The notes under the pieces are model-generated. The model had not been told where the DNA came from and searched no databases. It saw only the letters and a program-made list of their open reading frames with translations. Of a stretch of DNA of 64,000 nucleotides, positions 801 to 51,350 are shown piece after piece (position 1 is the first letter of the stretch; each line of letters starts with the position of its first letter). This stretch comes from Gemmatimonadota bacterium (lineage in GTDB: Bacteria; Gemmatimonadota; Gemmatimonadetes; Palauibacterales; Palauibacteraceae), in the NCBI GenBank assembly GCA_021295785.1, contig JAGWBR010000003.1:65236-129235 (forward strand), in the 5' to 3' direction. A program made the translations under genes and the position numbers.

Positions 801-3099
<2,299 letters not shown>

Positions 3100-3103
<4 letters not shown>

Positions 3104-4188
3104 GCCGGGATCAACTCGCCGTCGGACATCTCGTACTGCGGCAGGCCCCTGGCTCCCCTCGGGCCTTCCTCCGCCCTGGACGACGTGAGAATGAGCTGCG
3201 CCGACTCCCGGCCTCCAAACAGCTCAAGCAGCCGGTTGCTGCGCCCGTCATCCAGTTCGGCAAAAATGTCATCCAGCAGGTAGACCGGTTCCCCGGCCAG
3301 GCGGCGCCTGAGCCGTTCGGCCTCGGCCAGCCGCAGGGCCAGCACTGCCGTGCGCTGCTGCCCGCTGGATCCGTAAACGCGCAGATCTCGGGACCCCTCG
3401 GGCCTTTCGGTAATGAACCGGAAATCGTCGCGGTGCGGGCCGATGGCTGTTGCACCCTGCGCCCTCTCTCTGGAACGCATCGAATCGAGGGCCTCCCGGA
3501 AGTCGGCCGCGTCGTCGGGACCCGAAGGTGCGTACGCCAAGACCCCACCCTCCCCGCCCGACACGTGCGCGAAAAACGACACAAAATCGCTCGAACTCTC
3601 CTGGATCCACGACCCGCGCCGCCGCGTCACGAGAGCACCCGCGTCGACCAACCCGTCCGTCCACGCGTCAATCTCCCCTTCGCTCGCGTCTCGCCGCAGC
3701 GCCTCGTTGCGGCGAACCAGCGCTGCCCGGTAGTTCTGGAGCGCACGCACGTATCCGGGGGATTCCAGCGCCAACGCGATATCGAGAAACCGGCGCCTTT
3801 CGACGGGTGAATTCCTGATGATGGACAGGTCTTCCAGACGGAACACCGAGATGCCGATCCGGCCCAGAGCATCCGACACGCGTTGGACGTCAAGCCCGCC
3901 TGCCTGAACCTTCTTGATCCGTTGCTTCCTGTCGTAAGCAGCAGCAACCCTCCCTCCCCCCTCAACCTCCGCCTCGACCCGGAACACATCTTGGTCGAAC
4001 GCCACAAGATCTCGGTCGGCCGCGCCCCGGAACGACCGGAACACCTCAAGATAACCGATGGCTTCGAGCAGGTTGGTCTTGCCCGCTCCGTTTGGGCCAA
4101 CCACGGCCGCGCCGGTTTCCGGGACCTCCCAGTCCAGCGGCGCCAAGTTCCTGAATCCCCTGATCTTGAGCTTCTTGAGGACCGCCAC
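3100..4188 (-). CDS. recF: DNA replication and repair protein RecF
   Basis: GTG start. VAVLKKLKIRGFRNLAPLDWEVPETGAAVVGPNGAGKTNLLEAI has the Walker A. C-terminal LLDDIFAELDDGR signature. 362 aa. Confidence 0.9.
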
Positions 4189-4235: not shown

Positions 4236-5144
4236 TTGCATGCCGGAATTTACTCTCCGGGGGAACCCGCCGCAGCACTCGGCCGGCCCCCAACCGGTAT
4301 GTTGGGCAGCAAATGCCGGAGCCGGAATCACCCGGCCAAGAATCAACTCCACCAAAGGAACCTGACGACGGGAATCTCGGCGGGTCGGTGTCTGCGGGGC
4401 GGGCTGGTCGGTGCGGTGGCGCTTGCCGGCATGCCTTCCGGTGCGGCGGCTCAGTGGGACGACGCTTCGATCGGGGCTGCCGTGATCGTGGCAGCCTTCG
4501 TGGCCGACGCCCCCGTGCGCCGCACGGCCCTGGTGGTGCAAAACCCCATGAGCGATGCGATTTCTTCGTTCGGCAATGCCTACGGAGACTGGCACACCAC
4601 GCTGCCGATTTTCGCAGGGGTGGGTATCGCGATCGGAGCGTCGGGGGGCCGTGAGGCCTGGGAATCCGTGGCGGCGGGGGCGGCCGGAGTCGCGGCGGCG
4701 TCGATGGCCAATGAACTGGTCAACCGTGCCATTGGCCGGCACCGTCCCAACGCCGACGAGGGTCCGTGGAGTTTTGCCCCCATGGGCGGGCACGCTTCCT
4801 TCGGTTCCGGCCATGCCACTTACGCGTTCGCAGTCGCGGGTGTGGTAGACGAACTGACCACCGGACGATGGGTGGCCCCGCTCTACGTGGCGGCCGCTCT
4901 CACGGGGGCGTCCCGGATATACTCCGACCGGCACTGGGTGTCGGACGTGGCGTTCGGGGCAGCGGTCGGGATCATGGTGAGCCGCATGGTGGCCCGGACC
5001 GTGGCTGACCGCCTCGGAGCGGTCGGGTCAGATGGGGCCGGCGCGGATGCCGGGGGGGGCCTCGAAGCGGACCATGAGAAGCGGCGGGTGTCGTGGGTAC
5101 TTTCCCCGGGTTTTGCCGGGATTACTTTGAAAGCACCCCGCTAG
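4236..5144 (+). CDS. PAP2-superfamily phosphatase (membrane-associated acid phosphatase/phosphatidic-acid-phosphatase type 2)
   Basis: Three PAP2 signature motifs: GRHRPNADEG (KX6RP), SFGSGHA (PSGH), SRIYSDRHWVSDV (SRX5HX3D). Several TM segments. The true start may be an internal M (e.g. 4299). Confidence 0.75.
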   Translation: MHAGIYSPGEPAAALGRPPTGMLGSKCRSRNHPAKNQLHQRNLTTGISAGRCLRGGLVGAVALAGMPSGAAAQWDDASIGAAVIVAAFVADAPVRRTALVVQNPMSDAISSFGNAYGDWHTTLPIFAGVGIAIGASGGREAWESVAAGAAGVAAASMANELVNRAIGRHRPNADEGPWSFAPMGGHASFGSGHATYAFAVAGVVDELTTGRWVAPLYVAAALTGASRIYSDRHWVSDVAFGAAVGIMVSRMVARTVADRLGAVGSDGAGADAGGGLEADHEKRRVSWVLSPGFAGITLKAPR

Positions 5145-11583: not shown

Positions 11584-11826
11584 CTAGTCGGCAGCGCGCG
11601 CCCTGCCGTGGGGGATCACCGGCGCGCAGTACCTGAGGCCAATGGTGCGGAGGACCTGGATATCCGATCCGCTCAGGTCCGGGTACCGCCCCGCCATGTA
11701 CTCAAGCGTGTCATCAAACCACGCCTCGCGCTCGTCAGGTTCAGCCTCCAACACCTGGCAAGCCCGGATGTGGCTGAATAATTCGTCCCGCGCTTTGTCA
11801 ACTTGATTGGTTTGGTGTCCTCCCAC
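11584..11826 (-). CDS. Small hypothetical protein (80 aa)
   Basis: Stand-alone ORF in a 450-bp gap. Acidic helical sequence (DELFSHIRACQVLEAEPDEREAWFDDTLEYMAGRYPDL). No family recognised; could be spurious. Confidence 0.25.
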   Translation of the reverse strand: MGGHQTNQVDKARDELFSHIRACQVLEAEPDEREAWFDDTLEYMAGRYPDLSGSDIQVLRTIGLRYCAPVIPHGRARAAD

Positions 11827-11962: not shown

Positions 11963-13684
11963 TTACAGGCTGGGAGGTTGGGCGGCCCCGGTGCCAGGAG
12001 AGTACTCGTCCAGGTACATGTTGATCTGACTGATCCGCGTGTTGAACCTGATCTGGACGATGATCCTCTTATCGTCGTCGCTCAGGTAGACCTCAGAGTC
12101 GTTGTCTTCGCCGAATGAGCTGCTGGACCTGATGATCGGGCGGACCACAATGGTCTGGAAGGTTCCCGCCTCAACCTGGACTCGCTCCCGCCGTAGCACC
12201 TCGACAATCACCGGGTTGTCTTCTTCGTCGAAATGGCGCTGGAGGTTATGGACCTGCCCCACTTCGAGCGGCAGGGTCCTGACCAGGTAAAGCAGCGATA
12301 TCTCGTCCAAGGCTCCTTCCATGACCGTGAACCGCGGCGGGTCCGCCACTTCCGCGTAGACACCGGTTTCCTCGTCCAGTTCGTAGATGATCCCCGTTTT
12401 GCTTTGGTGGTCAATGACCGTGCGCCGGTCCCGGCTGAAACCGGGCTCCCGTACCTTCTCTTCGAACAGGAGGGACCGGAACGGATCCGGGGCGAGCCAG
12501 CTGACCGTGCGCTGTTCGAGCCGGAACCCCAGAACCCTCCCGCTCAGTTCCATTGCCAGGCGCAGGGTCTCGGTTCCGCGAATGAGCTCGCTCGCCTCGA
12601 CGGCGAGGCTGGCCACTCCGATCCGGCCACGGGCCCGGCCCCAGCCGGCCGTCACGGTGTACTGCGCTGTCTCACCAACTCCAAACGGCAGGTCAAGAAG
12701 GAAACCGTCGGGGTCGCGCGGGGGCGTATGGCTCTCAACACCGGCCAAACCGTTTGTCGGAGCCTGGGCGGCGAGGGGCAGCGCCGTCGCTCCCGCCCCC
12801 AGGGCGGCAGCTGCGGCGGCGGCCGACACCATCGCGACACGGGCCGCCGTGCTTCGGGCCGTGCGCCACAACGAACCGTCGCGTGCGGCCGAGGCGAGGC
12901 ACCTCAGTTCGCGCCTGGCCGAAAAACGGCTCGGTCGCAGCCGTCCGTAATCGTGCAGGCGTTGGCCTTGAAGCCTGATTTCGTGCCTGCGGCGTACGAA
13001 GGGCGCTGTGCGGGCCAGCAGTTCGACGTTGGCCGCCCAACCCTTGTGGCGCATCAGAGGGCCGGTGTCGGCCGCCTCGATGACGCGCTCAAGCAGGGTG
13101 AGCCGGTACAACCGGAAAGAACTCCCCGGGTTGCGGTCGCTCAGTCGCCCCCGCGCCCGTGCCGTGCGCCGCAGAGCGGCGCGGACAAGGCGGCGGCGCA
13201 GCCTGCCCCGTTTCGGGCCGGGGATGCGGGCCCCGGGCGGTACGGTGACCAGGTCAACACCCCCCTCAAACCGGCGGACCATCTCGGAAATCAGGTCCGG
13301 CGAATCAGTCAGATCAGCCTGCATGGTCAGAAGCCCATCGCGGCGAGGGTAATCGGAGCGACTCACAGCCGAGCGGATCAGCTGCTCGAGCGCCGCCGCC
13401 CGGCCCGGCCGGGCCGGAGGTTGCACGATCTCAACGGGAACGAGTTTGCTGTACCGCCGCACAATGTCGGTGAGCCTGTTACGGTCTCCGTCTCCACAGA
13501 CCAGAACCGTGTAGGCCGCCCGGTCACGGGCCGCTACCTGCCGCAGCCGCCACAACAGGGGGCCGAGGGTCGCCTCGTCCAGCGTCGGTATTCCGACGTA
13601 TATCAAAAACCGCCCTCCGAACTTTCTTCCGAGTTGTCTTTCGAGCTTTCCGGGGGTGAACCCTTCCAGCGCCGGTGGAACCAA
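11963..13684 (-). CDS. Composite protein: degenerate GT2-like (DPM1-like) N-terminal domain + Arg-rich linker + signal-peptide-like hydrophobic segment + DUF3108 C-terminal domain
   Basis: N-terminal: YTVLVCGDGDRNRLTDIVRRY...PGRAAALEQLI...LLTMQADLTDSPDLISEMVRRFEGGVDLVTV aligns with GT2 signature blocks but with DxD/DAD replaced (GDGD, QAD). Middle: ARVAMVSAAAAAAALGAGATALPLAAQAP. C-terminal: YTVTAGWGRARGRIGVASLAVE...VIDHQSKTGIIYELDEETG...LVRTLPLEVGQV is DUF3108-like. The 5' 80 nt overlap lpxL, so the real start is probably near 13600. Confidence 0.55.
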   Translation of the reverse strand: MVPPALEGFTPGKLERQLGRKFGGRFLIYVGIPTLDEATLGPLLWRLRQVAARDRAAYTVLVCGDGDRNRLTDIVRRYSKLVPVEIVQPPARPGRAAALEQLIRSAVSRSDYPRRDGLLTMQADLTDSPDLISEMVRRFEGGVDLVTVPPGARIPGPKRGRLRRRLVRAALRRTARARGRLSDRNPGSSFRLYRLTLLERVIEAADTGPLMRHKGWAANVELLARTAPFVRRRHEIRLQGQRLHDYGRLRPSRFSARRELRCLASAARDGSLWRTARSTAARVAMVSAAAAAAALGAGATALPLAAQAPTNGLAGVESHTPPRDPDGFLLDLPFGVGETAQYTVTAGWGRARGRIGVASLAVEASELIRGTETLRLAMELSGRVLGFRLEQRTVSWLAPDPFRSLLFEEKVREPGFSRDRRTVIDHQSKTGIIYELDEETGVYAEVADPPRFTVMEGALDEISLLYLVRTLPLEVGQVHNLQRHFDEEDNPVIVEVLRRERVQVEAGTFQTIVVRPIIRSSSSFGEDNDSEVYLSDDDKRIIVQIRFNTRISQINMYLDEYSPGTGAAQPPSL

Positions 13685-14472
13685 AAATACTGCTCGGGCC
13701 GGCGGCGAATCTCACGCTCCAGCGCCGCCATCCAGCGAACGGTCAACTCCCGCGCCGATACACCGGCCGGTACCCCCGCCCCGGTCGGGCCTTTAGATCC
13801 GTCGTCCATGCGTTCGTAGACGAACCTGTACCCCTCCGAGTCTCGCGCGGCATCTCGCACGAGCGCGGCAAAATACAGCGGCACCCCGGCGGCGATGCTC
13901 AGCTTGGCGGGTCCCCGGGAGGCGCGGGCCGGGCGTCCCAGGAACTGCACCCACTCACCACCGGGAGCGTGCTGATCGGCCACGACCGCCGCCACACCGG
14001 TGCGGGCTGCCCGCAGAAGGACCCCGGCCTGCCCGGGTCCCCTGTGGGTTACGCGTATTCCCAGACCCCGGCGCATCCTCCCGAGCAGAGGCCCGGCCAG
14101 CCAGCCCTGTGGCTGTACCGCAGCCACCAATCCCGTCCCGGACTGCGCGGTGGCGGCGGCACCCAGCTCCCAGTTGCCCAGGTGACCCGTCACCACCACC
14201 GCCCCTCCGGTCCCTTCCCGGCGGCCGTAGTCCAGCGACCGTACGAACTCTTCGACCCCTGCGATCCGGGAGAGCGTTGCCTCCAAGGTGCCGGGAGAAC
14301 GCGACGCCCGCCACGAAACGGCCAGTTCCCGACTGAAATGCCGGTAACACTCCCGGGCAACTTCCGCGGCCCAATCGGAGGATCGTTCGGGGAAGCTCGC
14401 CGTGACCTGCGACTGTGCCACCCGCCGCCGCCAGCCCGCCAGACGTGCTGCCTCACCGACCCAGGCTACCAC
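13603..14472 (-). CDS. Lysophospholipid/lipid A late acyltransferase (LpxL/HtrB/MsbB family)
   Basis: GTG start. VVVTGHLGNWELGAAA has the HX4D/E acyltransferase motif. C-terminal ...RRPEQYFWFHRRWK matches the LpxL family. Adjacent to an msbA-like gene. Confidence 0.8.
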   Translation of the reverse strand: MVAWVGEAARLAGWRRRVAQSQVTASFPERSSDWAAEVARECYRHFSRELAVSWRASRSPGTLEATLSRIAGVEEFVRSLDYGRREGTGGAVVVTGHLGNWELGAAATAQSGTGLVAAVQPQGWLAGPLLGRMRRGLGIRVTHRGPGQAGVLLRAARTGVAAVVADQHAPGGEWVQFLGRPARASRGPAKLSIAAGVPLYFAALVRDAARDSEGYRFVYERMDDGSKGPTGAGVPAGVSARELTVRWMAALEREIRRRPEQYFWFHRRWKGSPPESSKDNSEESSEGGF

Positions 14473-14509: not shown

Positions 14510-16350
14510 CTATACGGCCACCGCCGCCAACTGAGGCGAGAACAGTTGCCAGAACTCGCCCCTGGCGGCTAGCAGATCGGCGCAGGTGCCTGACTCGGCA
14601 ATGCGGCCCTCCGAAAGAACCCAGATCCGGTCCACCTCCCGCACCGCGGCCAACCGGTGAGCCACGATCACGACCGTCCCGACATGCGGGTCTTCGGCAA
14701 GCCGGTCCAGCACACGTTTCTCCGACTCGGCGTCCAGGGCGGAGGTGGCTTCGTCCAGAATCAGCAGCGCCGGCCTGCGGTACGCCGCCCGCGCCAACCC
14801 GATCCGCTGGCGTTCGCCTCCGGAAAGGCGGGTGCCCCGGTCGCCAACACGGGTCGCGTAACCGGCCGACAAGCGCCCGATGAAATCGGCCGCACCGGCC
14901 ACCGCCGCAGCTGCCCCGACACGGTCCGTGTCGGGCTCCGCGCCGTAGGCGATGTTCGCGCTGATGGTGTCGTTGAACAGGTGCGTCTCCTGCGTCAGGA
15001 GCGCGACGCGGTTCCGCAGCCGGGACGCCGGGACCACGGAAATGTCACGGCCGTCAACCAGGACCCGACCGCCGTCTGGTTCCCAAAACCGGCAGACGAT
15101 TCCCGCCAGGGCGCTCTTACCCCCGCCGGACGCGCCGACCAGAGCCGCGCTGCTGCCGGCCGGGACCGCCATCGACACGCCACGCAGAACCGGCTTGTCG
15201 CGAGTGTAGCCGAATTCCAGGCCCTCCACCCGCAGGTCGGCGGCATTGGTGCCCCGTGCCGCTCCGTGTGCCGCCACCGTGGCAGGGCCCGACGAGGTCG
15301 CCGGCTCGGGTGCCCGGTCCAGGACCGAGAAGAACCGCCGGGCCGCAGCCAGAGCCGGTGCAGCCGCGGTCCGGTACCCGACCAACGCCTTGAAAGGTGA
15401 AATAGCGCGCAGGGCAATCACGACAAACGCCATGAACTGCTCGGGGGCCAACCCGGTCCCCCCCGACGCCAGGTTGGCGCCGGCCTGCACCAGTATGAGG
15501 GCCACCGCCGAGCCGAGCACCTCCGACAGGGGCGACGCGAGCAGGGCCGCGGACTCGGCGGAAACCGTGCGCTGGCGAACCGATTCGGAGTGTCGCCTGA
15601 ACCTGGCGGTCTCCCATGCCTCGGCACCCCAGGCCTTGACCAGCCTGATCGCGCCGAGCGTCTCCTGGAGGAGCGCCGACATCCGGCCGTGTTCGCGGAA
15701 GACCCGGCCGAAGCGGCCGCGCAGGCCCCTCAGCAACGGGCGGAGGATGAAACGGCTGGCCGGGACCAACAACAAAGCCGCCAGCGCCAGCACCCAAGAC
15801 AGGGCGGCCAGCGCGGCCGCGTAGGCGATCAGAGTCGCGGCGTGGCGGACGGCAGCCGCAAGCAGATCGGTCGCCGCGCTCTTCGCCCTCTCCGTGTCGG
15901 CTAGTACCCTCGCGGCCAGATCGCCGGCGCGGTTTGCCTCCAACCACCCCAGCGGAAGCCGGTGCAGCCGGTCGTGAACCGCATCCCGCATGTCGCGCGC
16001 CGAACGCTCGCGCACCCGCGCGGCCAGAACGGAGCTTCCCCACAGGCAGGCGTTCTTCAGCGCGATAGCCGCAAACACCGCCAGGCAAACCGCGCCCAGA
16101 CCTTCCAGTCCTTCCGCGGACCCAAGCCACCGGCCGGTTACTTCGTCGAGCAGCCGCTCGGCCAGATTTCTGCCCCCGTCGGGCAGGAGGGGGCCCATGT
16201 CGAAAAGCGAACGCAGGAACGGGATTAACAGGAGAAGTCCGAAAGCATCCAGACCCCCTGCCAGAGATCCGAGAACCACCGCCCCCGCGAACGCGCCCCG
16301 GGACGGCTTCGAAAAATGCAGCAGGCGCCGGAGTCCCGGCGGGGCAATCA
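14510..16350 (-). CDS. ABC transporter permease/ATP-binding protein, MsbA-like (lipid A/lipid exporter)
   Basis: 6-TM N-terminal domain beginning around LRRLLHFSKPSRGAFAGAVVLG. NBD with Walker A GASGGGKS, signature LSGGERQRIGLARA, Walker B LLILDEATSALD. The start is not ATG and is approximate; the ORF frame extends to 16483, overlapping the upstream gene. Confidence 0.85.
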
Positions 16351-17922
16351 CCGGGGAGTCAGCAACGCCACCGGCAGCACCATTTCTTCGAGGCTCACGC
16401 CCCCGTGCAGGAAACTGTTCCTGTACCTCCGCCGGTATTCGTTGAGCTTGGTCGGATAGACAAAGAAATAGTCTTCCCGGCACAAAACGTAGCTCTGCCG
16501 CAGCCCCCCCGGCGGCAACCTCAGCTCGTCTGCGTCGCGGGCGGAATACACGTTGTCGGGGTTCTCGGCGCGAATGTCGTTCCCGATCTTGTACCTGAGC
16601 CCGCGCGAGGCGTCCGGCCCGGCAAACACTGTGGTCGGACGGTGGCAGTGGATGGAGCCGTGGTCGGTAGTCACCAGAGTACGCACTCCCAGCCGGGCCG
16701 CCAACCGCAGGGCATCCAGCGCCGGTGATCTCTCGAACCAGGCGGTGGTCAGTGACCTCAGGGCACTTGGGTCGCCGGCAATCTCCCAGAGCAGCCGCGA
16801 CTCCGCCCTGCCGTGGGTCAACAAATCCACAAAGCCAAACACCAGCGCGGTGGCCCCCGGGGTCGACAGTACTCCACCCAGATTGGCCAGGGCCGTCCCC
16901 GCCTCACGCCGGGTAAAGACCCTCTCGTAGTGGGTTTTCACGCGCCGGCCGGCCGCCCGCTCCACCGCGTTCTGGAACAACTCGGCCTCGGGTGAATTGT
17001 CGCCCACGGCCCACCAGTCGGGCTTGACTTCCGCCAACTCGTCGGCAAACAAGCCCGTGAATATTCCGTTGCGAGAAAAGGGAGTGGCAGTCGGCAACAC
17101 CGATGAATACAGCGACTCCTCGATCTCGAAAAAGTCCTCCAGGTGCGGCCGAATCGCCCGCCACTGGTCCAGCCTCATGCAGTCCATCACGATGATCAGA
17201 GTCGATTCGTCCTCCCGCACCAGCGGGCCGAAGAACCGGGGCATGATATCGACCGAGAGCGGCGGGCCGCGCGCCCCGCCCTCGTGCACCCACTGCCCGT
17301 ATCGCTGGGCGACCAGGTCGCAGTACCCGCGGCGTGCCTCGGTCAAAAGACTGTCAAGCGTCTCGGCCAGCCCCGCCTCCCGAGCGGCATCCAGCCTCAA
17401 CTGCCAGTCCACCAGCTGCGAGTAGAGGTTGGCGTAATCCCGCCAAGAGCTGGCCTCCGCCGCCGCTTCCGCCAGCCGGGGATAGAGTCGTGTGAAGTCA
17501 CGGGCCATGAACTCGTGGCGCAGCTCGGGACCCGCGAGCAGGCGGGTCACCACCGAGAGGACCTGACGCGGACTGGTCGGCTTGACGATGTAGTCTTCCG
17601 CCCGGCGCCCGATCGCCTCGCGAAGCGTCGAGTCCTCTTCGCTCTTGGTGACCATTACCACAGGCAGACGGGGAGCCTCGCGCCTCACGCGCTCCAGCAC
17701 CTCGATGCCGCGCAGGCCGGGCATTCGCTCGTCCAGGAGCATGAGGTCGTAGCTCCAGCGCGACAACAACTCGAGCGCGTCGGCACCGTTCATTACGGGG
17801 TCGACAACGTAACCGGCCCGGCGGAGTGTCATTAGATGAGGACGAAGCATGTCGACTTCGTCGTCGGCCCACAGAATCCGTCCGCGGCTCTGGCCGCCCG
17901 CCGGCTCTTCTGAATCTCTCAT
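16348..17922 (-). CDS. Response regulator with C-terminal PglZ (alkaline-phosphatase-superfamily) domain; PorX-like
   Basis: ATG 17922-17920 gives MRDSEEPAGGQSRGRILWADDEVDMLRPHLMTLRRAGYVVDPVMNGADALELL...LLDERMPGLRGIEVL, a CheY-like REC with phospho-acceptor DD...D. Followed by about 400 aa of PglZ-like domain (TLIIVMDCMRLDQW...TTDHGS). No adjacent histidine kinase. Confidence 0.85.
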   Translation of the reverse strand: MRDSEEPAGGQSRGRILWADDEVDMLRPHLMTLRRAGYVVDPVMNGADALELLSRWSYDLMLLDERMPGLRGIEVLERVRREAPRLPVVMVTKSEEDSTLREAIGRRAEDYIVKPTSPRQVLSVVTRLLAGPELRHEFMARDFTRLYPRLAEAAAEASSWRDYANLYSQLVDWQLRLDAAREAGLAETLDSLLTEARRGYCDLVAQRYGQWVHEGGARGPPLSVDIMPRFFGPLVREDESTLIIVMDCMRLDQWRAIRPHLEDFFEIEESLYSSVLPTATPFSRNGIFTGLFADELAEVKPDWWAVGDNSPEAELFQNAVERAAGRRVKTHYERVFTRREAGTALANLGGVLSTPGATALVFGFVDLLTHGRAESRLLWEIAGDPSALRSLTTAWFERSPALDALRLAARLGVRTLVTTDHGSIHCHRPTTVFAGPDASRGLRYKIGNDIRAENPDNVYSARDADELRLPPGGLRQSYVLCREDYFFVYPTKLNEYRRRYRNSFLHGGVSLEEMVLPVALLTPR

Positions 17923-18009
17923 CTGGTCAGCAGGTCTCGGTCCATTGAAATACGGCTCCTCAGCCCGCAAGGCATGACGCGCGCACCGGTCCAAACGTAA
18001 CTTCGCGGC

Positions 18010-19395
18010 GTGAAAACGATCACCCGGTACGTACTCCGCTTGCATGTGGCGCCGTTCTTTTTTTCGGTTTCGGCGCTCACACTGGTCTTCCTGATGGACC
18101 AGGTGGGCGAGAAACTCCCCGACCTGGCCGGCAAGGGCCTGCACTGGACCATCATCGTGAAGGTGTTTGGGCTTTCGCTTCCGTTCATCCTGGCGCAGAC
18201 CGTTCCCATGGGTGTGCTCATCGCCGCCCTTTACGTGTTCAGCCGACTCGAACTGGACCGGGAGATTACCGCGCTCAGGGCGGCGGGGGTCTCAATTGTG
18301 CGGACGGCGGGGCCGCTCTTGGTTGCCGCGGTGATGCTGACCGGGTTCATGGTTTGGTTTTCCGACCGCGTGCTGCCCGAGTCCAATCACGAGCTGACCA
18401 AACTGACGGTTGGGATCCAGAGGAAAAAGCCCCTTTTCTCCATGAGGGAAGGAACGCTCAACGGCGTATTGCCGCGAGTTTACTTGCAGGCGGCCCGGAT
18501 TGACCACGAAACCAACCAGATGTCCGAGGTTCGTCTCTACGACGAGCGGGGCGGTCAGCAGAGCCGGACGGTCTACGCGGACAGCGGCTCCACCACTCCC
18601 GGCAACAAGGGCACCGACCTTTTCCTTCACCTTGGGGACGGGGTGGTGCAGGAGAAACCGTGGCAGCGTTCGGACATGTTCCGGCAGATCCATTTTGACA
18701 ACATGATCATGAGGCTGCCCGATATCGCCAACGACCTGGAAGTTGACTCCGTCCAGGCGCGCGGCGAGCGCGAGATGTCGATTGCCGACATGAGGGTTGC
18801 CGCCGCCGAGGGGGACAAGCGGGCCGAACTGGCCAAGTCGGAAACCGGCGCGTTCACGCACCAGGTCACCCACCGGATCTTGGGGATTGCCGCCCCCGCG
18901 GAGTCCGGAGCGGAAGGGGTCGGGGGCGGAGCGGGCACCACCGAAGAGGCGCTGCAATTGGCCGCTGCCGATTCGACTTTCGCCGAGGCGCTGGGCACGG
19001 TGGTTCAGCGGGGCCGGGACCAGGGCGAGCGCGTGCACAGGACCGTGGAGGTAACCGAGACCTTCAGGCAGCTGACCGCCCGCGAACGCGCCGGCGTCAA
19101 CACCTCCCGGAGATACTGGGTTGAGATCCACAAGAAGGGTTCCATCCCGGCGGCCTGCATTGCATTCGTGCTGCTGGCCGTGCCAGTCGCCATTCGTTAT
19201 CCGAGGGGGGGAGTGGCTCTGGTGGCCGGGGTCAGCTTCACGATATTCGCGGCCTATTACCTGGCGCTCAGCGGCGGAGAGAAGCTGGCCGACCAAGACC
19301 TTGTGACGCCGCTGTGGGCGATGTGGCTGCCCAACGTCCTGTTTGGGGGAGTGGGCCTCTGGATTCTGATGCGCACCCGGACGGCGTTCCGGTGA
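18010..19395 (+). CDS. LptF/LptG-family (YjgP/YjgQ) LPS export permease
   Basis: GTG start. VKTITRYVLRLHVAPFFFSVSALTLVFL is the typical LptF/G N-terminus. Large periplasmic beta-jellyroll region. C-terminal TM helices (YWVEIHKKGSIPAACIAFVLLAVPVAI). Confidence 0.85.
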   Translation: MKTITRYVLRLHVAPFFFSVSALTLVFLMDQVGEKLPDLAGKGLHWTIIVKVFGLSLPFILAQTVPMGVLIAALYVFSRLELDREITALRAAGVSIVRTAGPLLVAAVMLTGFMVWFSDRVLPESNHELTKLTVGIQRKKPLFSMREGTLNGVLPRVYLQAARIDHETNQMSEVRLYDERGGQQSRTVYADSGSTTPGNKGTDLFLHLGDGVVQEKPWQRSDMFRQIHFDNMIMRLPDIANDLEVDSVQARGEREMSIADMRVAAAEGDKRAELAKSETGAFTHQVTHRILGIAAPAESGAEGVGGGAGTTEEALQLAAADSTFAEALGTVVQRGRDQGERVHRTVEVTETFRQLTARERAGVNTSRRYWVEIHKKGSIPAACIAFVLLAVPVAIRYPRGGVALVAGVSFTIFAAYYLALSGGEKLADQDLVTPLWAMWLPNVLFGGVGLWILMRTRTAFR

Positions 19396-19462
19396 GCCCG
19401 CGTGCCGCATTCCGATGAACGTCGCATCGTTCCGGCCGCGCCGGCCCCGGTGGCTGCGAATC

Positions 19463-20551
19463 ATGGATTTGTACGTGGCCGGGCAGTTCATGCAGGTGTT
19501 CATCGTGTGTATGCTGGGCGTTCCGTTCCTGTTCTGGGTCATCAACCTGGTGGACACGCTCGACGTGGGGCGTGCCGGCAACCGTCCGGGCTTCGGCGCG
19601 ATGGCCGTGCAGTACTTCTTCGAGGCGCCCTATCACAGCCTGGTCGCCTTCCCAATCGCCCTTCTGCTGTCTTCGGCGTTCACCGTGTCCAACTTCGCGA
19701 GGCGCATGGAACTGGTCGCCGTCAAGGCAGGCGGCACCTCGTTTTACCGGTTCTCGCTCCCCATTGTCATCTGCGCGGCCGGCCTCAGCGTAGGCGGGAT
19801 TGGGCTGGCCGAGGTGGCCGCGGCCGGCCAGCGCAAGGCTCGCGAGGTGTCGGGCGAGGGACCTTCTCTGACCGGGCGCCGCAGCACTTTCGTGTTCGCC
19901 GGCGACAACGAGACCATGTACAAAGTGCGTTCGCTCGACGCCAACCAGGGACGCATGACCGAGGTGCAGATCGAACGCGCGCCGAGGTCCGCGGGGGATC
20001 CCCGGATGAATGCGGCGGCCGCTCAGGCAATCTATCAACCTGGCTTGGGCCGGTGGCTGATGGAGGACGGCTGGATGCGCCTGATGCCGGCAGAGGGCCG
20101 TGAGACCGCGTTCCAGTTTGCGGAACTGCAAATGCGGAGTTTCGACGCCGACCCCGACGAGCTGCTAGCGACCGAAAACGACCAGCGGCAGGGCCGTATC
20201 GAAGACAAGGAGCTGCGGTACGGGGAGCTAGAGGAGGCGATCCGGGGTATCGAACGGTCGGGGGGAGAGCCGCTGTTGCTGAGGACCCTTCTGGCGCAGC
20301 GCATTGCCTACCCGTTCTCGGGACTCGTAATCACGCTGTTCGGGATTTCGCTTGCTCACACCACCAGGAGGGGCGGCACGCCGACTGCCCTGGCTGTCGC
20401 CCTGCTGACGACATTCCTCTACATCATCCTCATCGAGATAGGGGAAGCGGCAGGCGGCGGCGGACTTCTTTCCCCGGCGGCAGCGGCCTGGATTCCGAAC
20501 ATGGTCTTTCTGGTACTCGGGCTGGTGATGTTTTGGCGGGTCAGGACCTAG
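19463..20551 (+). CDS. LptF/LptG-family (YjgP/YjgQ) LPS export permease (second paralogue)
   Basis: ATG at 19463 gives MDLYVAGQFMQVFIVCMLGVPFLFWVINLVD. C-terminal YPFSGLVITLFGISLAH. Directly downstream of the first permease, the usual lptF-lptG arrangement. Confidence 0.85.
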   Translation: MDLYVAGQFMQVFIVCMLGVPFLFWVINLVDTLDVGRAGNRPGFGAMAVQYFFEAPYHSLVAFPIALLLSSAFTVSNFARRMELVAVKAGGTSFYRFSLPIVICAAGLSVGGIGLAEVAAAGQRKAREVSGEGPSLTGRRSTFVFAGDNETMYKVRSLDANQGRMTEVQIERAPRSAGDPRMNAAAAQAIYQPGLGRWLMEDGWMRLMPAEGRETAFQFAELQMRSFDADPDELLATENDQRQGRIEDKELRYGELEEAIRGIERSGGEPLLLRTLLAQRIAYPFSGLVITLFGISLAHTTRRGGTPTALAVALLTTFLYIILIEIGEAAGGGGLLSPAAAAWIPNMVFLVLGLVMFWRVRT

Positions 20552-39292: not shown

Positions 39293-41110
39293 TCAGCCGC
39301 CGGCCGCGATCCCCCGCAGCGTGTCCGCCAGCAGGCGGAGGCGGCGCGCATCGCCGGCACCGCGGGCGTTTTCGGCACTGCGGGCCGTGGATTCGAGTTG
39401 GTCGGCCAGAGACACCATGGCATCCCCGTCGACTGATCCCGTTTCAGCCATCTCGAGCAATTCTTCGGCCGCGGACGCCGCCTCGGGCCCGATTCCGCCG
39501 CTGCGCTGCATCTGCTTCAGGTAAGAGCGGGCGACCGGCACCGTGGCCGGCCACTCGACCAAAGGCTGGGTCTGGGCGTTGAATTCGTTCATCCGCACCG
39601 ACCGGGCCGCCTCGATCTCCGCCTCGGAAAGGTGTTCCCCCACGGCCAGCGCCAGCACGTCGATGCCGCGGGCCATCTCGGCTCCGTAGATCGCGCCATT
39701 GTGCCAGTAGGCCGACCAGTATCCGCCCGATAGCATCTCCACCGGATCCAGGGGACCGCGGTCGAAGTATCCGATTTCGTGAGCGTTGGCCGGGTCCGTG
39801 AAATCAAACACCGAGATTCCGCCCTGGTACCAGGCCTGGACCATGATGTCGCGGCCGGGCACCGGAATCAGGGAACCGTTGTGGGCCACGCAGTTCTCCT
39901 GCTCGGTCTGCGGCACCGGCAGCTTGTAGTAGCCGGCCAGCTCCATCTTGCGGTCGCGCACGCGGAAAATGGCGTTTGCCCCCCAGGTGTCGGGGTCGGT
40001 GGACCTGCACCGGGGCGCCCCTCCACCACCCCACTCGTCGGTGAAGACAATCGCGGTGCCATCGTTGTTGAAGGTGGCCGAGTGCCAGTAGGCGAAATTC
40101 GGGTCCGCAACCTGGTCGATCCGGACCGGGTTGGCCGGGTCGCTGATGTCGAGCAGGATCCCGTTACCGGAGCACGCCCCCGCCGCCAGCCCCAGGTCGG
40201 GCCGCACGGTGATGTCGTGACACTGGTTGGTTACCCGCGACCGCTGGGTCATGGGACCGTGGTCGCCCCCTGGCCACAAGCCGGCGATTTCGCCCGTCTC
40301 GGGGTCGGCGAAAATGCGCGGCGCGCTGACAATCCGCGCATCCTCGGGCATTGCCAGGGGCACCTCAATCACTTCGATCCGGAACAGAGCGGTGCCCGGC
40401 TCCTCGTCCGGGGTCCCCGCCACGCAACCGTCGAGTTCCTCGGCCGGGCGCACCCGCCCGGTTCCCGACACGTAAATCCAAACGCGGTCGTCCGCGTCAG
40501 GGTGCGTCACCAACGTGTGGGTGTGGGAGCCGCGGCAGGTCTGCACCGTCTTGACCTGGCGCGGATTGGAGACGTCGCTCAGGTCGAAGATGCGAATACC
40601 CATGAGCCGTTCGCCGCTCACCGGCGGCTCAACCCCTTCGGTTCCACAGTCTTGCCGGGCGCTGGACTGCTGCACCGACGTGAACAGCAAGTGGCCGTGG
40701 ACCGACACGTCGCCCTGGCCGCCGGGGCACACCACGCTGACGGTCAACTCGGGCTCGGCCGGATCTGAAACGTCGTAGATCTGGAAGCCCCAGTAGCTTC
40801 CCTGAATCATGTAATCGCCCAGGAAGGCGATGTCTGAGTTCGTGGGGCCGCGTCCGTCCGCTTCTTCGGTCAGAAACGCGTCGGGCTTGGGCATGCTGAT
40901 GAGCAGCGACAGCCCGTCGATTGCCTCGCCCGCGTCGAACACGCCGGCCTCCAGGCCGATGCGCGGATCGTCGGGATCCCACTGCCAGCTGGTTTCGGGG
41001 ATCTCAACCGGCGGGGGACGCTGTTGGGCTGCAGCATCCGAAGCGGCCACGGCCAGGAGTCCGGCGGCTGCCGCAAGGGTCAGGGGCTTCATCGCTGGTG
41101 TCAACTTCAT
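39293..41110 (-). CDS. Secreted LVIVD-repeat (beta-propeller) protein
   Basis: Signal peptide MKLTPAMKPLTLAAAAGLLAVAASDAAAQ. Repeated L.I.DISDP..P-type motifs (FQIYDVSDPAEPE, IRIFDLSDVSNPR, GILLDISDPANP, ISVFDFTDPANAHEIG). C-terminal helical tail. Confidence 0.55.
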   Translation of the reverse strand: MKLTPAMKPLTLAAAAGLLAVAASDAAAQQRPPPVEIPETSWQWDPDDPRIGLEAGVFDAGEAIDGLSLLISMPKPDAFLTEEADGRGPTNSDIAFLGDYMIQGSYWGFQIYDVSDPAEPELTVSVVCPGGQGDVSVHGHLLFTSVQQSSARQDCGTEGVEPPVSGERLMGIRIFDLSDVSNPRQVKTVQTCRGSHTHTLVTHPDADDRVWIYVSGTGRVRPAEELDGCVAGTPDEEPGTALFRIEVIEVPLAMPEDARIVSAPRIFADPETGEIAGLWPGGDHGPMTQRSRVTNQCHDITVRPDLGLAAGACSGNGILLDISDPANPVRIDQVADPNFAYWHSATFNNDGTAIVFTDEWGGGGAPRCRSTDPDTWGANAIFRVRDRKMELAGYYKLPVPQTEQENCVAHNGSLIPVPGRDIMVQAWYQGGISVFDFTDPANAHEIGYFDRGPLDPVEMLSGGYWSAYWHNGAIYGAEMARGIDVLALAVGEHLSEAEIEAARSVRMNEFNAQTQPLVEWPATVPVARSYLKQMQRSGGIGPEAASAAEELLEMAETGSVDGDAMVSLADQLESTARSAENARGAGDARRLRLLADTLRGIAAGG

Positions 41111-48407: not shown

Positions 48408-48632
48408 CGCGCTATCGCGGGAATACTCACCGGTGGATGTCCCTGGCGACGCGAAAACCCATTGTGGAGGCGCTATGAGCGAGCCCCTGTCAGTTTGTCG
48501 TCCCGAATCTCCTGCTCGCTCAGCGGCTCGCAAGCGCAGCCAGTGTCCTCACCACCACTTTCACGAAATTCATGCTGCCCGTAACGCCCCACGCTAGAGC
48601 GCTAGTTGAGTTTGCGCAATTCATTGTCTAGA

Positions 48633-49727
48633 ATGCCGCGCCTACGACGCCAAACTCCGAGGTGCGTTTTGCCCAACATCGATACGCCCCCCGTGTTTGT
48701 GGTCAGCACCGGGCGGTGCGGTTCTACGATGGTCTCCAACATGGCCCGGCTGCACCCCCGGATTCTTAGCGTGTCCGAGTTCCTGGCGTGCCTGGCCGAC
48801 AAGGCGCTTGTTGGATCCCATCTTGACGGCGAGGGGTTGTACGAGCGCTTCGCCAATCTGCGCCCCGTTGGGAAGGCCCTGCTCCGCAACAACCTGATCG
48901 TCAGCGAATACCTCTACCCCGTTGGGCAGCCCGGGTCCCGGTTCGGACCCCGGGACGTGCCGGCAATCATGGGAGCTACGCTACCCCACCTGTCGGACGA
49001 CCCGGAAGCCCTCTGGGACGAGCTTGTCCCCGTGATCCGGGCGCGTGGCCGGTACACCTTGCAGGCCCAGTACAGGTTCTTTTTTGAATGGCTGGCCGTC
49101 CGTTTCGGCAAGGATGTGTGGATTGAACGGTCCGGGGCTTCGATTCTCAGCGTCCCGACCCTGGCCAGGCTCTTCCCCGACGCCCGTTTCGTGCATGTCT
49201 ACCGCGACGGCCGCGACACGGCCATCTCCATGCGGGGCCACTACGTGTTCCGCATGTACCTGGGCATGGCGATGCGTGGCAGGCGCGTCGGCATGGATTC
49301 TTTCAGCCCGCGCAACTGGCCGGGGACCAGTCGTTGGGTGCCCTGGTTCACTCCTCTGGTGTTTCGGAGCTTTGACGCCAAAGCCGACAATTTCCGCGAC
49401 AATCCCGCCGCGCTGCACGAGTTCGGGTGGTTGTGGAGCAGTATGATCGAACGGGGTACCAGATACTTGGACGCGCTCCCGAAGGACCGCGTCCTCAACA
49501 TGCGCTTTGAGACTGTACTAGAATCCCCCAAAGATGAAATGCGGCGGTTTGCCGAATTCGTGGGCCCAGGATTCGTGGACGAAGACTGGCTTGAACGGAT
49601 CACCTTGCTTCCCCGCAAGAAGACACCCAGCTGGATGAAGTTGACTTCCGACGAGCATGCCCGCCTGGCCGCAGCATGCACACCTGGACAGCGGATTCTG
49701 GAATACGCCCAAGACGAGCAGTCGTGA
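48633..49727 (+). CDS. Sulfotransferase (Sulfotransfer_3-like), paralogue of the C-terminal domain of the upstream fusion
   Basis: MPRLRRQTPRCVLPNIDTPPVFVVSTGRCGSTMVSNM (5'-PSB) and ARFVHVYRDGRDTAISM (3'-PB). Collinear similarity to residues about 460-799 of the fusion through to the C-terminus (VLNMRFETVLESPKDEMRRF vs LLNLRFEDMQQNPAEEARRL). The ORF track starts at TTG 48606; ATG 48633 is preferred. Confidence 0.8.
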   Translation: MPRLRRQTPRCVLPNIDTPPVFVVSTGRCGSTMVSNMARLHPRILSVSEFLACLADKALVGSHLDGEGLYERFANLRPVGKALLRNNLIVSEYLYPVGQPGSRFGPRDVPAIMGATLPHLSDDPEALWDELVPVIRARGRYTLQAQYRFFFEWLAVRFGKDVWIERSGASILSVPTLARLFPDARFVHVYRDGRDTAISMRGHYVFRMYLGMAMRGRRVGMDSFSPRNWPGTSRWVPWFTPLVFRSFDAKADNFRDNPAALHEFGWLWSSMIERGTRYLDALPKDRVLNMRFETVLESPKDEMRRFAEFVGPGFVDEDWLERITLLPRKKTPSWMKLTSDEHARLAAACTPGQRILEYAQDEQS

Positions 49728-50932: not shown

Positions 50933-50976
50933 CCGCACCCCGGCACTGGTGAACCGCGCTTCGGCGGGACTGAACC

Positions 50977-51342: not shown

Positions 51343-51350
51343 GCCCGCCC

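What the first reader, a model, noticed from the sequence alone, without database searches (positions are those of the whole stretch)
16348..17922. Orphan PorX-like REC-PglZ response regulator embedded in the lipid A/LPS export gene block
A CheY-like receiver (DD...D, K) fused to an approx. 400-aa PglZ/alkaline-phosphatase-superfamily domain is the architecture of PorX, the T9SS regulator of Porphyromonas. Here it sits between msbA-like (its stop abuts or overlaps the msbA start region) and divergent lptF/lptG, with no histidine kinase adjacent. The placement hints at regulatory or enzymatic (phosphodiesterase) coupling to envelope/LPS biogenesis rather than T9SS.
Basis: partly seen in the sequence, partly recalled or inferred. 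Interest (0 to 1): 0.55.

Follow-up and report, generated by a model that had tools for sequence, protein, structure and literature searches.

The report
PorX regulator fused into LPS-export operon
The gene is a textbook member of the PorX family of signalling proteins known from type IX secretion, but in this bacterium's whole phylum (Gemmatimonadota) it is always welded to the gene for the lipid A exporter MsbA, an unreported arrangement that hints at a link between PorX signalling and outer-membrane lipid export.

Summary
Window 16348-17922 (-) encodes a 524-aa receiver + three-helix bundle + PglZ protein.

**Identity.** It is a PorX orthologue, not merely PorX-like.
- It scores 493.7 bits on NCBIfam's PorX equivalog (cutoff 300).
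- It aligns end to end with P. gingivalis PorX (E 9e-108).
- The AF2 model gives TM 0.88-0.90 against 7PV7/7PVK.
- All phospho-acceptor and Zn/nucleophile residues are conserved.

**Host and context.** The host is a Gemmatimonadota bacterium. The 64-kb window holds no histidine kinase and no T9SS gene.
- The porX stop overlaps the start of an MsbA-like gene (GTGA). LpxL-like and GT2-DUF3108 genes follow, and lptF/lptG lie divergently upstream.
- The porX-msbA junction is phylum-wide. It occurs in 29/30 Gemmatimonadota loci (30/30 within 2.3 kb) and in 0/46 loci from other phyla.
- In those other phyla, porX is followed by tsaE/ubK (40-42/49) and often preceded by a PorY-like kinase or sprA.

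**Limits.** "Orphan" is normal for PorX. The protein shows no sign of a changed function. Whether this lineage has a T9SS could not be tested.

**Verdict.** An ordinary family member in a new, conserved and suggestive operon context.

The parts
16348..17922 (-). porX orthologue, 524 aa (REC + three-helix bundle + PglZ)
17548..17877 (-). Receiver (CheY-like) domain, aa 16-125
   Evidence: Pfam PF00072 E 4.9e-23. The AF2 model shows a five-stranded alpha/beta fold.
17731..17733 (-). Codon of Asp64, the predicted phospho-acceptor (equivalent to P. gingivalis PorX Asp58)
   Evidence: Invariant in 84/84 PorX sequences.
17287..17532 (-). Three-helix bundle linker domain, aa about 131-212
   Evidence: AF2 helices 131-156, 160-179 and 183-212. 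Aligns to the PorX helical bundle.
16351..17256 (-). PglZ / alkaline-phosphatase-superfamily domain, aa about 223-524. Zn ligands are D247, D366, H370, D420, H421 and H506; the nucleophile is T280.
17083..17085 (-). Codon of Thr280, the predicted catalytic nucleophile (equivalent to P. gingivalis PorX Thr272)
   Evidence: residue roles from PMC9757075
16348..16351 (-). GTGA: the porX stop codon overlaps the GTG start of the MsbA-like gene (translational coupling)
   Evidence: The gene caller places the start 4 nt before the porX stop.
14510..16351 (-). MsbA-like ABC exporter (lipid A-core flippase candidate), 613 aa
   Evidence: ABC_membrane + ABC_tran. TIGR02203 MsbA is the top family at 364 bits, below its 602 cutoff. 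The best bacterial PDB match is MsbA, E 4e-76.
13603..14472 (-). LpxL-type lipid A late acyltransferase-like gene, 289 aa
   Evidence: PF03279, 71.8 bits
11963..13606 (-). GT2 glycosyltransferase fused to DUF3108, 547 aa. Its TTG start overlaps the lpxL stop (TTGA).
11584..11826 (-). Small conserved ORF (80 aa) between DUF3108 and the CNNM gene, function unknown
   Evidence: Called in L001, L003, L087 and L088
10131..11516 (-). CNNM/CBS/CorC membrane protein, syntenic in the Longimicrobiales-type loci. Not a GldE by score.
   Evidence: (TIGR03520 GldE 177 bits against a 376 cutoff)
17923..18009 (.). 87-bp divergent intergenic region between porX and lptF (presumed promoters). No sigma-70 consensus match and no Rfam family.
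18010..19395 (+). LptF-like LPS export permease
   Evidence: PF03739, 261.6 bits. TIGR04407 scores 185.7, below its 230 cutoff.
19415..20551 (+). LptG-like LPS export permease. The gene caller gives 362 aa, i.e. a start near 19463.
   Evidence: PF03739, 201.4 bits

Best explanation
The gene encodes a genuine PorX-family response regulator in a Gemmatimonadota bacterium.

**Mechanism inferred from the solved homologues.**
- An unlinked kinase phosphorylates Asp64.
- The Thr92/Tyr111 switch then remodels the alpha4-beta5-alpha5 face and the protein dimerises.
- The PglZ domain, with two Zn sites and the Thr280 nucleophile, becomes an active phosphodiesterase on small linear or cyclic oligonucleotides.
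- The phosphorylated receiver can dock onto a membrane machine.

**What is shown here.** In this phylum the gene is transcribed and translationally coupled with the MsbA-like lipid A-core flippase gene, inside a lipid A/LPS core operon (porX-msbA-lpxL-GT2/DUF3108, with lptFG divergent). The porX-tsaE/ubK pairing used by the other phyla is replaced.

**Most likely meaning (inferred).** PorX signalling in Gemmatimonadota is tied to LPS export and outer-membrane assembly. It would act as a regulator or protein partner, not as an LPS-modifying enzyme. This may coordinate LPS supply with surface-protein secretion.
For: **Family identity.**
- NF052313 scores 493.7 bits against a cutoff of 300.
- Full-length match to PDB 7PV7 at E 9e-108 and to 8TED at E 5e-101.
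- AF2 model has pLDDT 83 and TM 0.88-0.90 to 7PVK/7PV7. The next fold hit is BREX PglZ at TM 0.43.
- All 12 functional residues are conserved in 84 sequences.
- Gemmatimonadota PorX form one clade in an NJ tree.

**Operon.**
- GTGA overlap of porX and msbA, and TTGA overlap of lpxL and GT2.
- No terminator-like site lies between porX and msbA.

**Phylum-wide synteny.**
- An MsbA-like gene lies <=400 nt downstream in 29/30 Gemmatimonadota loci, and in 30/30 within 2.3 kb.
- Start and stop overlap or lie <=34 nt apart in 26 loci.
- These PorX are only 45-68% identical to each other, and their other neighbours differ.
- Control: 0/46 non-Gemmatimonadota loci have an MsbA-like gene within +-10 kb. 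Instead, 40-42/49 have tsaE/ubK downstream.
- In L005, porX sits between Kdo kinase/Kdo hydroxylase/heptosyltransferases and msbA.

**Known biology.**
- PorX activities and its PorL/GldL binding: PMC9757075, PMC10951265.
- T9SS cargo is anchored to A-LPS: PMC8545088.
- Lipid A 1-phosphatase activity depends on the T9SS: PMC12704123.
Against: - Gene order alone does not prove a functional link. Overlapping stop/start codons are common in compact high-GC operons.
- The protein carries no clade-specific change at functional sites, so nothing in the sequence points to MsbA or LPS.
- The MsbA-like gene is below NCBIfam's MsbA cutoff (364 against 602 bits).
- All the Gemmatimonadota cases probably descend from one ancestral rearrangement, so they count as one evolutionary event that has been maintained.
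- Presence of a T9SS, of PorY and of UbK elsewhere in the genome is unknown.
Confidence: 0.55

Rival explanations
1. Pure T9SS regulator, with neutral synteny. The protein does exactly what PorX does in Bacteroidota: it is controlled by PorY and acts on PorL/GldL, SigP and oligonucleotides. Its position upstream of msbA is a frozen accident of one ancestral rearrangement with no functional meaning.
For: - Sequence constraints are the same as in T9SS-linked PorX, with only 7 signature positions.
- The Gemmatimonadota PorX form a single clade, so the rearrangement is one event.
- The literature says a T9SS may be present in Gemmatimonadetes (PMC11285876).
- One NCBI protein is named [quoted passage not shown] (P0248).
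Against: - The junction has survived divergence down to 45% PorX identity, while every other neighbour changed between Longimicrobiales-type and Gemmatimonadaceae-type loci.
- It is usually kept at a 1-4 nt overlap.
- No T9SS CTD, sprA or PorY-like kinase was found in 686 kb of Gemmatimonadota DNA held here. By comparison, 864 kb from other phyla held 12 CTD ORFs, 12 kinases and 4-5 sprA genes. This is a weak test, because the Gemmatimonadota loci are syntenic copies of one region.
Confidence: 0.3
2. Operon-specific transcription regulator. Phospho-PorX binds DNA, as reported for the porT promoter in P. gingivalis, and autoregulates the porX-msbA-lpxL operon and the divergent lptFG genes from the 87-bp shared intergenic region.
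For: - A divergent promoter region lies between porX and lptF.
- PorX was reported to bind the porT promoter (PMC8050853, abstract seen).
Against: - PorX has no recognisable DNA-binding domain.
- The lptFG-porX juxtaposition is not conserved. A GT9 gene intervenes in L001/L003, and Gemmatimonadaceae loci have DnaB-like/RuvC/YebC genes upstream.
- No repeated operator-like element was looked for or seen.
Confidence: 0.08
3. LPS-precursor enzyme. The PglZ domain acts directly on a phosphorylated lipid A/Kdo intermediate at the cytoplasmic face, before MsbA flips it. It would work as a phosphatase, phosphodiesterase or phosphotransferase, like other alkaline-phosphatase-superfamily lipid A modifiers.
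For: - The fold is AP-superfamily, with a Thr nucleophile and two Zn sites.
- In L005 the upstream genes are Kdo kinase and Kdo hydroxylase, and the downstream gene is msbA.
- In the window protein, two nucleotide-contact elements differ. Asn358(Pg) is Gly363, and the Gua1-contact loop has a 4-aa deletion.
Against: - The active site and its surroundings match those of T9SS-linked PorX, which cleave oligonucleotides.
- 30/34 Gemmatimonadota PorX keep the Asn and 33/34 keep the full loop, so the window's peculiarities are not a phylum trait.
- The protein is soluble, with no membrane segment.
Confidence: 0.05
4. Phage-defence PglZ (BREX-like) that happens to carry a receiver domain.
For: Weak hits to BREX PglZ models: NF033449 at 68.8 bits and PADLOC PglZ at 64.2 bits.
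Against: - NF033449 scores far below its 250-bit cutoff.
- No BrxC, PglX or other BREX gene lies nearby.
- The structural match to BREX PglZ is TM 0.43, against 0.88-0.90 for PorX.
Confidence: 0.01

Closest known systems
PorX of Porphyromonas gingivalis (PGN_1019; PDB 7PV7/7PVA/7PVK), T9SS response regulator and phosphodiesterase
   Same: - Same three-domain architecture and length (524 aa against about 518 aa).
- 33-34% identity end to end, TM 0.88-0.90.
- Identical phospho-acceptor, Mg-binding, T/Y/K switch, Zn-ligand and Thr-nucleophile residues.
- No adjacent histidine kinase (PMC9757075).
   Different: - Host phylum is Gemmatimonadota, not Bacteroidota.
- The downstream gene is msbA-like, translationally coupled, instead of ubK1/tsaE (PMC13241743).
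- Gly363 replaces Asn358.
- A 4-residue deletion lies in the loop that contacts the first guanine of pGpG.
- T9SS partners are not demonstrated.
PorX of Flavobacterium johnsoniae (Fjoh_2906; PDB 8P6F, 8TED and related)
   Same: Same fold and active site (E 5e-101; TM 0.82-0.87). The phospho-dependent receiver there binds GldL (PMC10951265).
   Different: In 14-16 Flavobacteriales loci, porX is followed by tsaE and lies divergent from an HD-domain gene, lpxD, lpxC/fabZ and an lpxA-like gene. That is a lipid A neighbourhood of a different kind, not an msbA operon.
porY-porX-tsaE(ubK) arrangement of other FCB-group phyla (Eisenbacteria, Latescibacterota, Zixibacteria, Ignavibacteriota, Fibrobacterota and others)
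   Same: Orthologous PorX at 36-41% identity, with the same residues.
   Different: Those loci have a PorY-like kinase directly upstream (12/45), sprA upstream (4-5/45) and tsaE/ubK downstream (40-42/49). None of these is present in 28-30 Gemmatimonadota loci.
BREX PglZ proteins (closest is the BREX-3 type)
   Same: Homologous PglZ fold and metal site (PMC9757075).
   Different: BREX PglZ has no receiver domain, is over 600 aa, and needs BREX partner genes. Scores are far below family cutoffs, and no partner genes are present here.
Classical msbA-containing lipid A operons (e.g. msbA-lpxK in E. coli; from general knowledge)
   Same: An ABC half-transporter of the MsbA type sits next to lipid A late acyltransferase and core glycosyltransferase genes.
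   Different: Here a two-component receiver/phosphodiesterase gene is the immediately preceding, overlapping cistron. No such arrangement was found in the literature searched.

Membership tests
PorX (REC-PglZ response regulator of the T9SS) | N-terminal CheY-like receiver with phospho-acceptor Asp, two Mg-binding acidic residues, and the Thr/Tyr/Lys switch | tested here: met
   D20, D21, D64, T92, Y111 and K114 align with P. gingivalis D14, D15, D58, T86, Y105 and K108. Pfam PF00072 E 4.9e-23.
PorX (REC-PglZ response regulator of the T9SS) | Three-helix bundle followed by a PglZ domain, total length about 500-530 aa | tested here: met
   524 aa. AF2 helices at 131-212, then an alpha/beta PglZ domain. 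TM 0.88-0.90 and rmsd 2.7-2.8 A to 7PVK/7PV7 over 518 columns.
PorX (REC-PglZ response regulator of the T9SS) | Zn ligands and Thr nucleophile of the PglZ active site (Pg D239, T272, D361, H365, D415, H416, H500) | tested here: met
   Window D247, T280, D366, H370, D420, H421 and H506. Conserved in all 84 sequences, apart from one Thr-to-Ser.
PorX (REC-PglZ response regulator of the T9SS) | Score above the curated equivalog threshold (NCBIfam NF052313) | tested here: met
   493.7 bits against a cutoff of 300, full model coverage.
PorX (REC-PglZ response regulator of the T9SS) | Co-occurrence with T9SS core genes (sprA/sov, porK/L/M/N, porV, porU) in the same genome | not testable with these tools
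   - None in the 64-kb window.
- None within +-10 kb of porX in 30 other Gemmatimonadota loci.
- Whole genomes cannot be read here.
- The literature says only that a T9SS "may be present".
PorX (REC-PglZ response regulator of the T9SS) | Cognate PorY histidine kinase (unlinked in P. gingivalis, adjacent in several other phyla) | not testable with these tools
   No kinase in the window. There are no tblastn hits of a PorY-like kinase (L047) in the window or in Gemmatimonadota loci.
PorX (REC-PglZ response regulator of the T9SS) | tsaE/ubK gene directly downstream (typical, though not formally defining) | tested here: not met
   0/30 Gemmatimonadota loci against 40-42/49 loci of other phyla. msbA-like occupies that position.
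PorX (REC-PglZ response regulator of the T9SS) | Zn-dependent phosphodiesterase activity on oligonucleotides, and binding to PorL/GldL and SigP | not testable with these tools
   This is biochemistry. Here it is only inferred from residue conservation (PMC9757075, PMC10951265).
BREX PglZ (phage defence) | Score above the BREX PglZ family cutoff, and linkage to BrxC/PglX and other BREX genes | tested here: not met
   NF033449 scores 68.8 bits against a cutoff of 250. PADLOC PglZ scores 64.2 bits, with no BREX partner among the neighbours. TM 0.43.
MsbA (lipid A-core flippase), for the coupled downstream gene | Score above the MsbA equivalog cutoff, and lipid A gene context | tested here: inconclusive
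   - TIGR02203 is the best family but scores 364 bits against a cutoff of 602.
- The best bacterial PDB homologue is MsbA, E 4e-76.
- The context (LpxL-like, heptosyltransferases, Kdo kinase in relatives) supports the assignment.

The most novel reading that the evidence does not exclude
In Gemmatimonadota, PorX has been rewired away from the PorY/UbK/T9SS module to the lipid A-core exporter. Two mechanisms are conceivable. Phospho-PorX could dock on the cytoplasmic domains of MsbA, as it docks on PorL/GldL elsewhere. Alternatively, its oligonucleotide phosphodiesterase output could gate LPS export. This could be happening in a lineage that has lost or never had a T9SS. That would mean the core job of PorX is outer-membrane/LPS homeostasis rather than secretion control.
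Probability: 0.2. Interest if true: 0.7.

Novelty: new member of a known kind. Interest (0 to 1): 0.4.

Why it matters
[quoted passage not shown] Candidates include an ECF sigma factor, the PorL motor, oligonucleotide turnover, and now UbK phosphorylation.

A whole phylum keeps porX as the overlapping upstream cistron of the lipid A exporter gene and has dropped the porX-ubK pairing. This gives an independent and testable pointer to a PorX-LPS connection. It fits two known facts: T9SS cargo is anchored to LPS, and lipid A 1-dephosphorylation in P. gingivalis needs a working T9SS.

The arrangement also offers a simple synteny marker for Gemmatimonadota. It provides a natural system for asking whether PorX can act without T9SS genes nearby.

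Tried and rejected
1. **Longer ORF.** The GTG-started 598-aa ORF (to 18144) was rejected. It overlaps the divergent lptF start, homologues begin near \"GRILW\", and the public gene call is 524 aa.
2. **Long MsbA ORF.** The version starting at 16483, 136 nt inside porX, was rejected in favour of GTG 16351. The apparent upstream similarity in tblastn comes from alternative-frame hitch-hiking on the conserved PorX C-terminus.
3. **GldE identity of the CNNM gene.** Rejected: 177 bits against a cutoff of 376.
4. **T9SS evidence.**
   - No T9SS family or CTD was found in window proteins, even at E<=1.
   - A home-made CTD HMM found 12 ORFs in other phyla's loci and none in Gemmatimonadota DNA. The Gemmatimonadota loci are syntenic copies, so this is weak.
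   - A CTD profile search saturated, with no Gemmatimonadota names among the hits.
   - A Latescibacterota CTD-like query found one NCBI protein named as a T9SS sorting-domain protein from a Gemmatimonadota MAG. Its contig could not be assigned confidently: GC 0.61, thiolase only about 50% identical to Gemmatimonadota thiolases.
   - Literature searches gave only \"may be present\".
5. **Walking off the window edge via gyrB.** This gave a different, shorter contig and no new informative genes.
6. **Promoter/terminator scan and Rfam scan.** Nothing informative was found.
7. **BREX/defence reading.** Rejected.
8. **PorX-MsbA complex prediction.** Not possible. Only window or database proteins can be submitted, and only as single chains.


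Full report
**Observation**

The ORF at 16348-17922 on the minus strand starts at ATG 17922 and encodes 524 aa. A longer GTG-started ORF reaching 18144 is not credible. It runs into the divergent lptF start, and a public gene call for the identical protein is 524 aa. Pfam finds a receiver domain at aa 16-125 (E 4.9e-23) and a PglZ domain at aa 242-429 (E 1.3e-9).

**Identity**

The protein is a PorX orthologue, not merely PorX-like.
- NCBIfam's equivalog model NF052313 (T9SS response regulator signal transducer PorX) scores 493.7 bits against a cutoff of 300, over the whole model.
- phmmer against the PDB gives full-length matches to P. gingivalis PorX (7PV7, E 9e-108) and F. johnsoniae PorX (8TED/8P6F, E about 5e-101).
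- An AlphaFold2 model built from 29 homologues has mean pLDDT 83 and pTM 0.73. It superposes on 7PVK/7PV7 with TM 0.88-0.90 and rmsd 2.7-2.8 A. The best non-PorX fold is a BREX PglZ at TM 0.43.

Residue roles come from Schmitz et al. 2022 (PMC9757075). Every key residue is present:
- Receiver: D20, D21, D64 (phospho-acceptor), T92, Y111, K114.
- PglZ metal ligands: D247, D366, H370, D420, H421, H506.
- Nucleophile T280, and phosphate-platform R284.

In an alignment of 34 Gemmatimonadota and 50 other PorX these positions are invariant, apart from one Thr-to-Ser.

**Organism**

- The window is about 65% G+C.
- The closest homologues, at 67-68% identity, are from Gemmatimonadota/Candidatus Palauibacter MAGs.
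- The identical protein lies on a 225-kb ENA metagenome scaffold.
- The same GyrB protein occurs on a JGI metagenome contig.
- In an NJ tree all 34 Gemmatimonadota PorX form one clade with two halves: Longimicrobiales-type, which includes the window, and Gemmatimonadaceae-type.

**Surroundings in the window**

The minus strand reads porX (17922-16348), then an MsbA-like ABC exporter (16351-14510), an LpxL-type acyltransferase (14472-13603), a GT2-DUF3108 fusion (13606-11963), an 80-aa ORF, a CNNM/CorC protein and a leuB-like dehydrogenase.
- The porX TGA overlaps the GTG start of the exporter gene (GTGA).
- The lpxL TGA overlaps the TTG start of the GT2 gene (TTGA).
- lptF- and lptG-like genes diverge from porX across 87 bp.
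- The MsbA assignment is reasonable but not certified. TIGR02203 is the top family at 364 bits, below its 602 cutoff. MsbA is the best bacterial PDB homologue (E 4e-76), and the lipid A context fits.
- Across about 43 likely genes of the 64-kb window there is no histidine kinase and no T9SS component or T9SS C-terminal sorting domain.
- No Rfam family and no convincing promoter or terminator was found.

**Is the context meaningful?**

I fetched porX loci from elsewhere: three from the protein-contig index and 80 from one genome per GTDB species. Of those 80, 31 are Gemmatimonadota and 49 come from Bacteroidota, Balneolaceae, Ignavibacteriota, Eisenbacteria, Zixibacteria, KSB1, Latescibacterota, Calditrichota, Fibrobacteraceae, Poribacteria and unclassified MAGs. 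tblastn with the window's proteins gave the following.

| Feature next to porX | Gemmatimonadota loci | Loci from other phyla |
|---|---|---|
| MsbA-like gene <=400 nt downstream, same strand | 29/30 | 0/46 (none within +-10 kb) |
| MsbA-like gene within 2.3 kb downstream | 30/30 | 0/46 |
| tsaE/ubK directly downstream | 0/30 | 40-42/49 |
| PorY-like histidine kinase directly upstream | 0/28 | 12/45 |
| sprA (T9SS translocon) directly upstream | 0/28 | 4-5/45 |

- In 26 Gemmatimonadota loci the gap between porX stop and msbA start is at most 34 nt. In about half it is a 1- or 4-nt overlap.
- These PorX proteins are as little as 45% identical to one another.
- The other neighbours differ between the two halves of the phylum. 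Longimicrobiales-type loci carry heptosyltransferase, lptFG, LpxL, GT2 and DUF3108. Gemmatimonadaceae-type loci carry DnaB-like/RuvC/YebC upstream and a GT4 glycosyltransferase downstream. The one constant is porX-msbA.
- In L005, porX sits in the middle of a one-directional LPS core cluster, between Kdo kinase/Kdo hydroxylase/two heptosyltransferases and msbA.
- The family assignments for TsaE, TsaB, RimI, the kinase and SprA (TIGR00150 at 111 bits; SprA TIGR04189 at 1030 bits) come.

The porX-ubK1 pairing was recently used in P. gingivalis to discover that UbK1 phosphorylates PorX (PMC13241743). Gemmatimonadota have therefore replaced the family's usual partner gene with the lipid A exporter gene.

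**How it most likely works**

Inferred by homology (PMC9757075, PMC10951265):
- An unlinked kinase phosphorylates Asp64, and the receiver dimerises through alpha4-beta5-alpha5.
- The PglZ domain then hydrolyses phosphodiester bonds of small linear or cyclic oligonucleotides.
- The phosphorylated receiver can bind a membrane machine.

Shown here: the gene is co-oriented and translationally coupled with the MsbA-like gene inside a lipid A/LPS operon, and this has been maintained across a phylum.

Inferred: this reflects a functional tie between PorX signalling and LPS export or outer-membrane assembly. Known biology makes this plausible. T9SS cargo is covalently anchored to A-LPS (PMC8545088), and P. 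gingivalis lipid A 1-phosphatase activity requires a functional T9SS (PMC12704123). A second, independent lipid A neighbourhood exists in Flavobacteriales, where porX lies divergent from an HD-domain gene, lpxD, lpxC/fabZ and an lpxA-like gene in 14-16 loci. I put about 0.55 on a real functional coupling. The identity as PorX is about 0.95, and co-transcription with msbA about 0.85.

**Rivals**

- *Neutral synteny with a purely T9SS role (about 0.3).* The Gemmatimonadota proteins have only seven clade-signature positions and no change at functional sites. The synteny stems from a single ancestral event.
- *DNA-binding autoregulator of the operon (about 0.08).* There is no DNA-binding domain, and the lptFG juxtaposition is not conserved.
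- *Direct enzymatic action on lipid A/Kdo intermediates (about 0.05).* The active site is the same as in the nucleotide-cleaving PorX. The window's two peculiarities are Gly363 for the near-invariant Asn, and a unique 4-aa deletion in the guanine-contact loop. They are not phylum traits.
- *BREX-type defence.* Effectively excluded.

**What could not be settled**

Whether this lineage has a T9SS, a PorY kinase or a UbK elsewhere in the genome remains open.
- A CTD HMM built from seven sorting domains found 12 ORFs in 864 kb of other phyla's loci and none in 686 kb of Gemmatimonadota DNA. The Gemmatimonadota loci are copies of one region, so this is weak.
- Database probes with CTD sequences were saturated or ambiguous.
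- The literature says only that a T9SS may be present in Gemmatimonadetes. An older survey found the T9SS only in Bacteroidetes.
- No paper in the searchable library mentions PorX in Gemmatimonadota or links PglZ with MsbA.

**Novelty and verdict**

The protein is a new member of a well-described family and is already named PorX by automatic annotation. "Orphan" is the normal condition for PorX. What is new is the phylum-wide, exclusive porX-msbA operon and the loss of the porX-ubK pairing.

This is a moderate but concrete lead for people working on T9SS regulation and on LPS export. It is not a new kind of system. Interest is 0.4.

The most novel reading not excluded is that PorX controls or partners MsbA in a lineage that may lack a T9SS. 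Its probability is about 0.2, and it would deserve an interest of about 0.7 if true.

Noticed in passing
L037-L085 (porX loci of non-Gemmatimonadota phyla), position +1 after porX: tsaE/ubK lies directly downstream of porX in 40-42 of 49 loci from about ten phyla, usually followed by tsaB and rimI. This extends the porX-ubK1 linkage, published only for P. gingivalis strains, to most of the FCB group.
   Followed up: partly
L040, L043, L047, L051, L052, L061, L062, L065, L070, L072, L078, L081, position -1: A PorY-like histidine kinase lies directly upstream of porX on the same strand. A conventional porY-porX operon therefore exists in Eisenbacteria, Latescibacterota, Zixibacteria, Ignavibacteriales, Fibrobacteraceae and a Poribacteria MAG.
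   Followed up: partly
L046, L054, L059, L067, L083, position -1; L067:324-2794: The T9SS translocon gene sprA (TIGR04189, 1030 bits) lies directly upstream of porX in Ignavibacteria and some Bacteroidota MAGs. In L067, lptG-lptF lie divergent from sprA-porX-tsaE, which recalls the lptFG-porX arrangement of the window.
   Followed up: partly
14-16 Flavobacteriales loci among L044-L085 (e.g. L071:6189-7589, L076:7712-8728, L079:8722-9951): porX is divergent from an HD-domain gene followed by lpxD, bifunctional lpxC/fabZ and an lpxA-like gene. This is a second, independent lipid A neighbourhood of porX.
   Followed up: partly
window 16834-16836 and about 16990-17010 (porX codon 363 and the loop before Asn309): The window's PorX has Gly where 30/34 Gemmatimonadota and 50/50 other PorX have Asn (P. 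gingivalis Asn358, the phosphate platform). It also has a unique 4-residue deletion in the loop that contacts the first guanine of pGpG.
   Followed up: partly
window 11963-13606 (-): The GT2 glycosyltransferase and DUF3108 are fused into one 547-aa product. It is called the same way on two other contigs, but these are two adjacent genes in L001 and L003.
   Followed up: partly
window 11584-11826 (-): A small 80-aa ORF with no family match is conserved in position between DUF3108 and the CNNM gene in L001, L003, L087 and L088.
   Followed up: no
window 46008-54109 (+): A cytochrome P450 is fused to a sulfotransferase (799 aa). It is followed by a second sulfotransferase, an MpaB/Lcp-type oxygenase domain protein, and cysD plus cysN/cysC (PAPS synthesis). 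This looks like a sulfated-metabolite gene cluster.
   Followed up: no
window 58966-61299 (-): A pyridine-nucleotide-disulfide oxidoreductase domain is fused to AIRS/AIRS_C (selenophosphate-synthetase-like) domains in one 777-aa ORF.
   Followed up: no
window 801-4188 (-): gyrB, a DciA-like gene and recF lie together at the window start. This is an origin-proximal gene set, so the porX-msbA operon lies roughly 12-15 kb from it.
   Followed up: no
window 4236-5144 (+): A PAP2-family membrane phosphatase has only faint similarity to undecaprenyl-diphosphatases and to lipid A 1-phosphatase LpxE (E 0.013). It is possibly relevant to lipid A remodelling but unresolved.
   Followed up: no
window 39293-41110 (-): A secreted 605-aa protein has a choice-of-anchor B domain (TIGR04312, 42.6 bits) but an alpha-helical, Ala/Arg-rich C-terminus instead of a recognisable sorting signal.
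   Followed up: no
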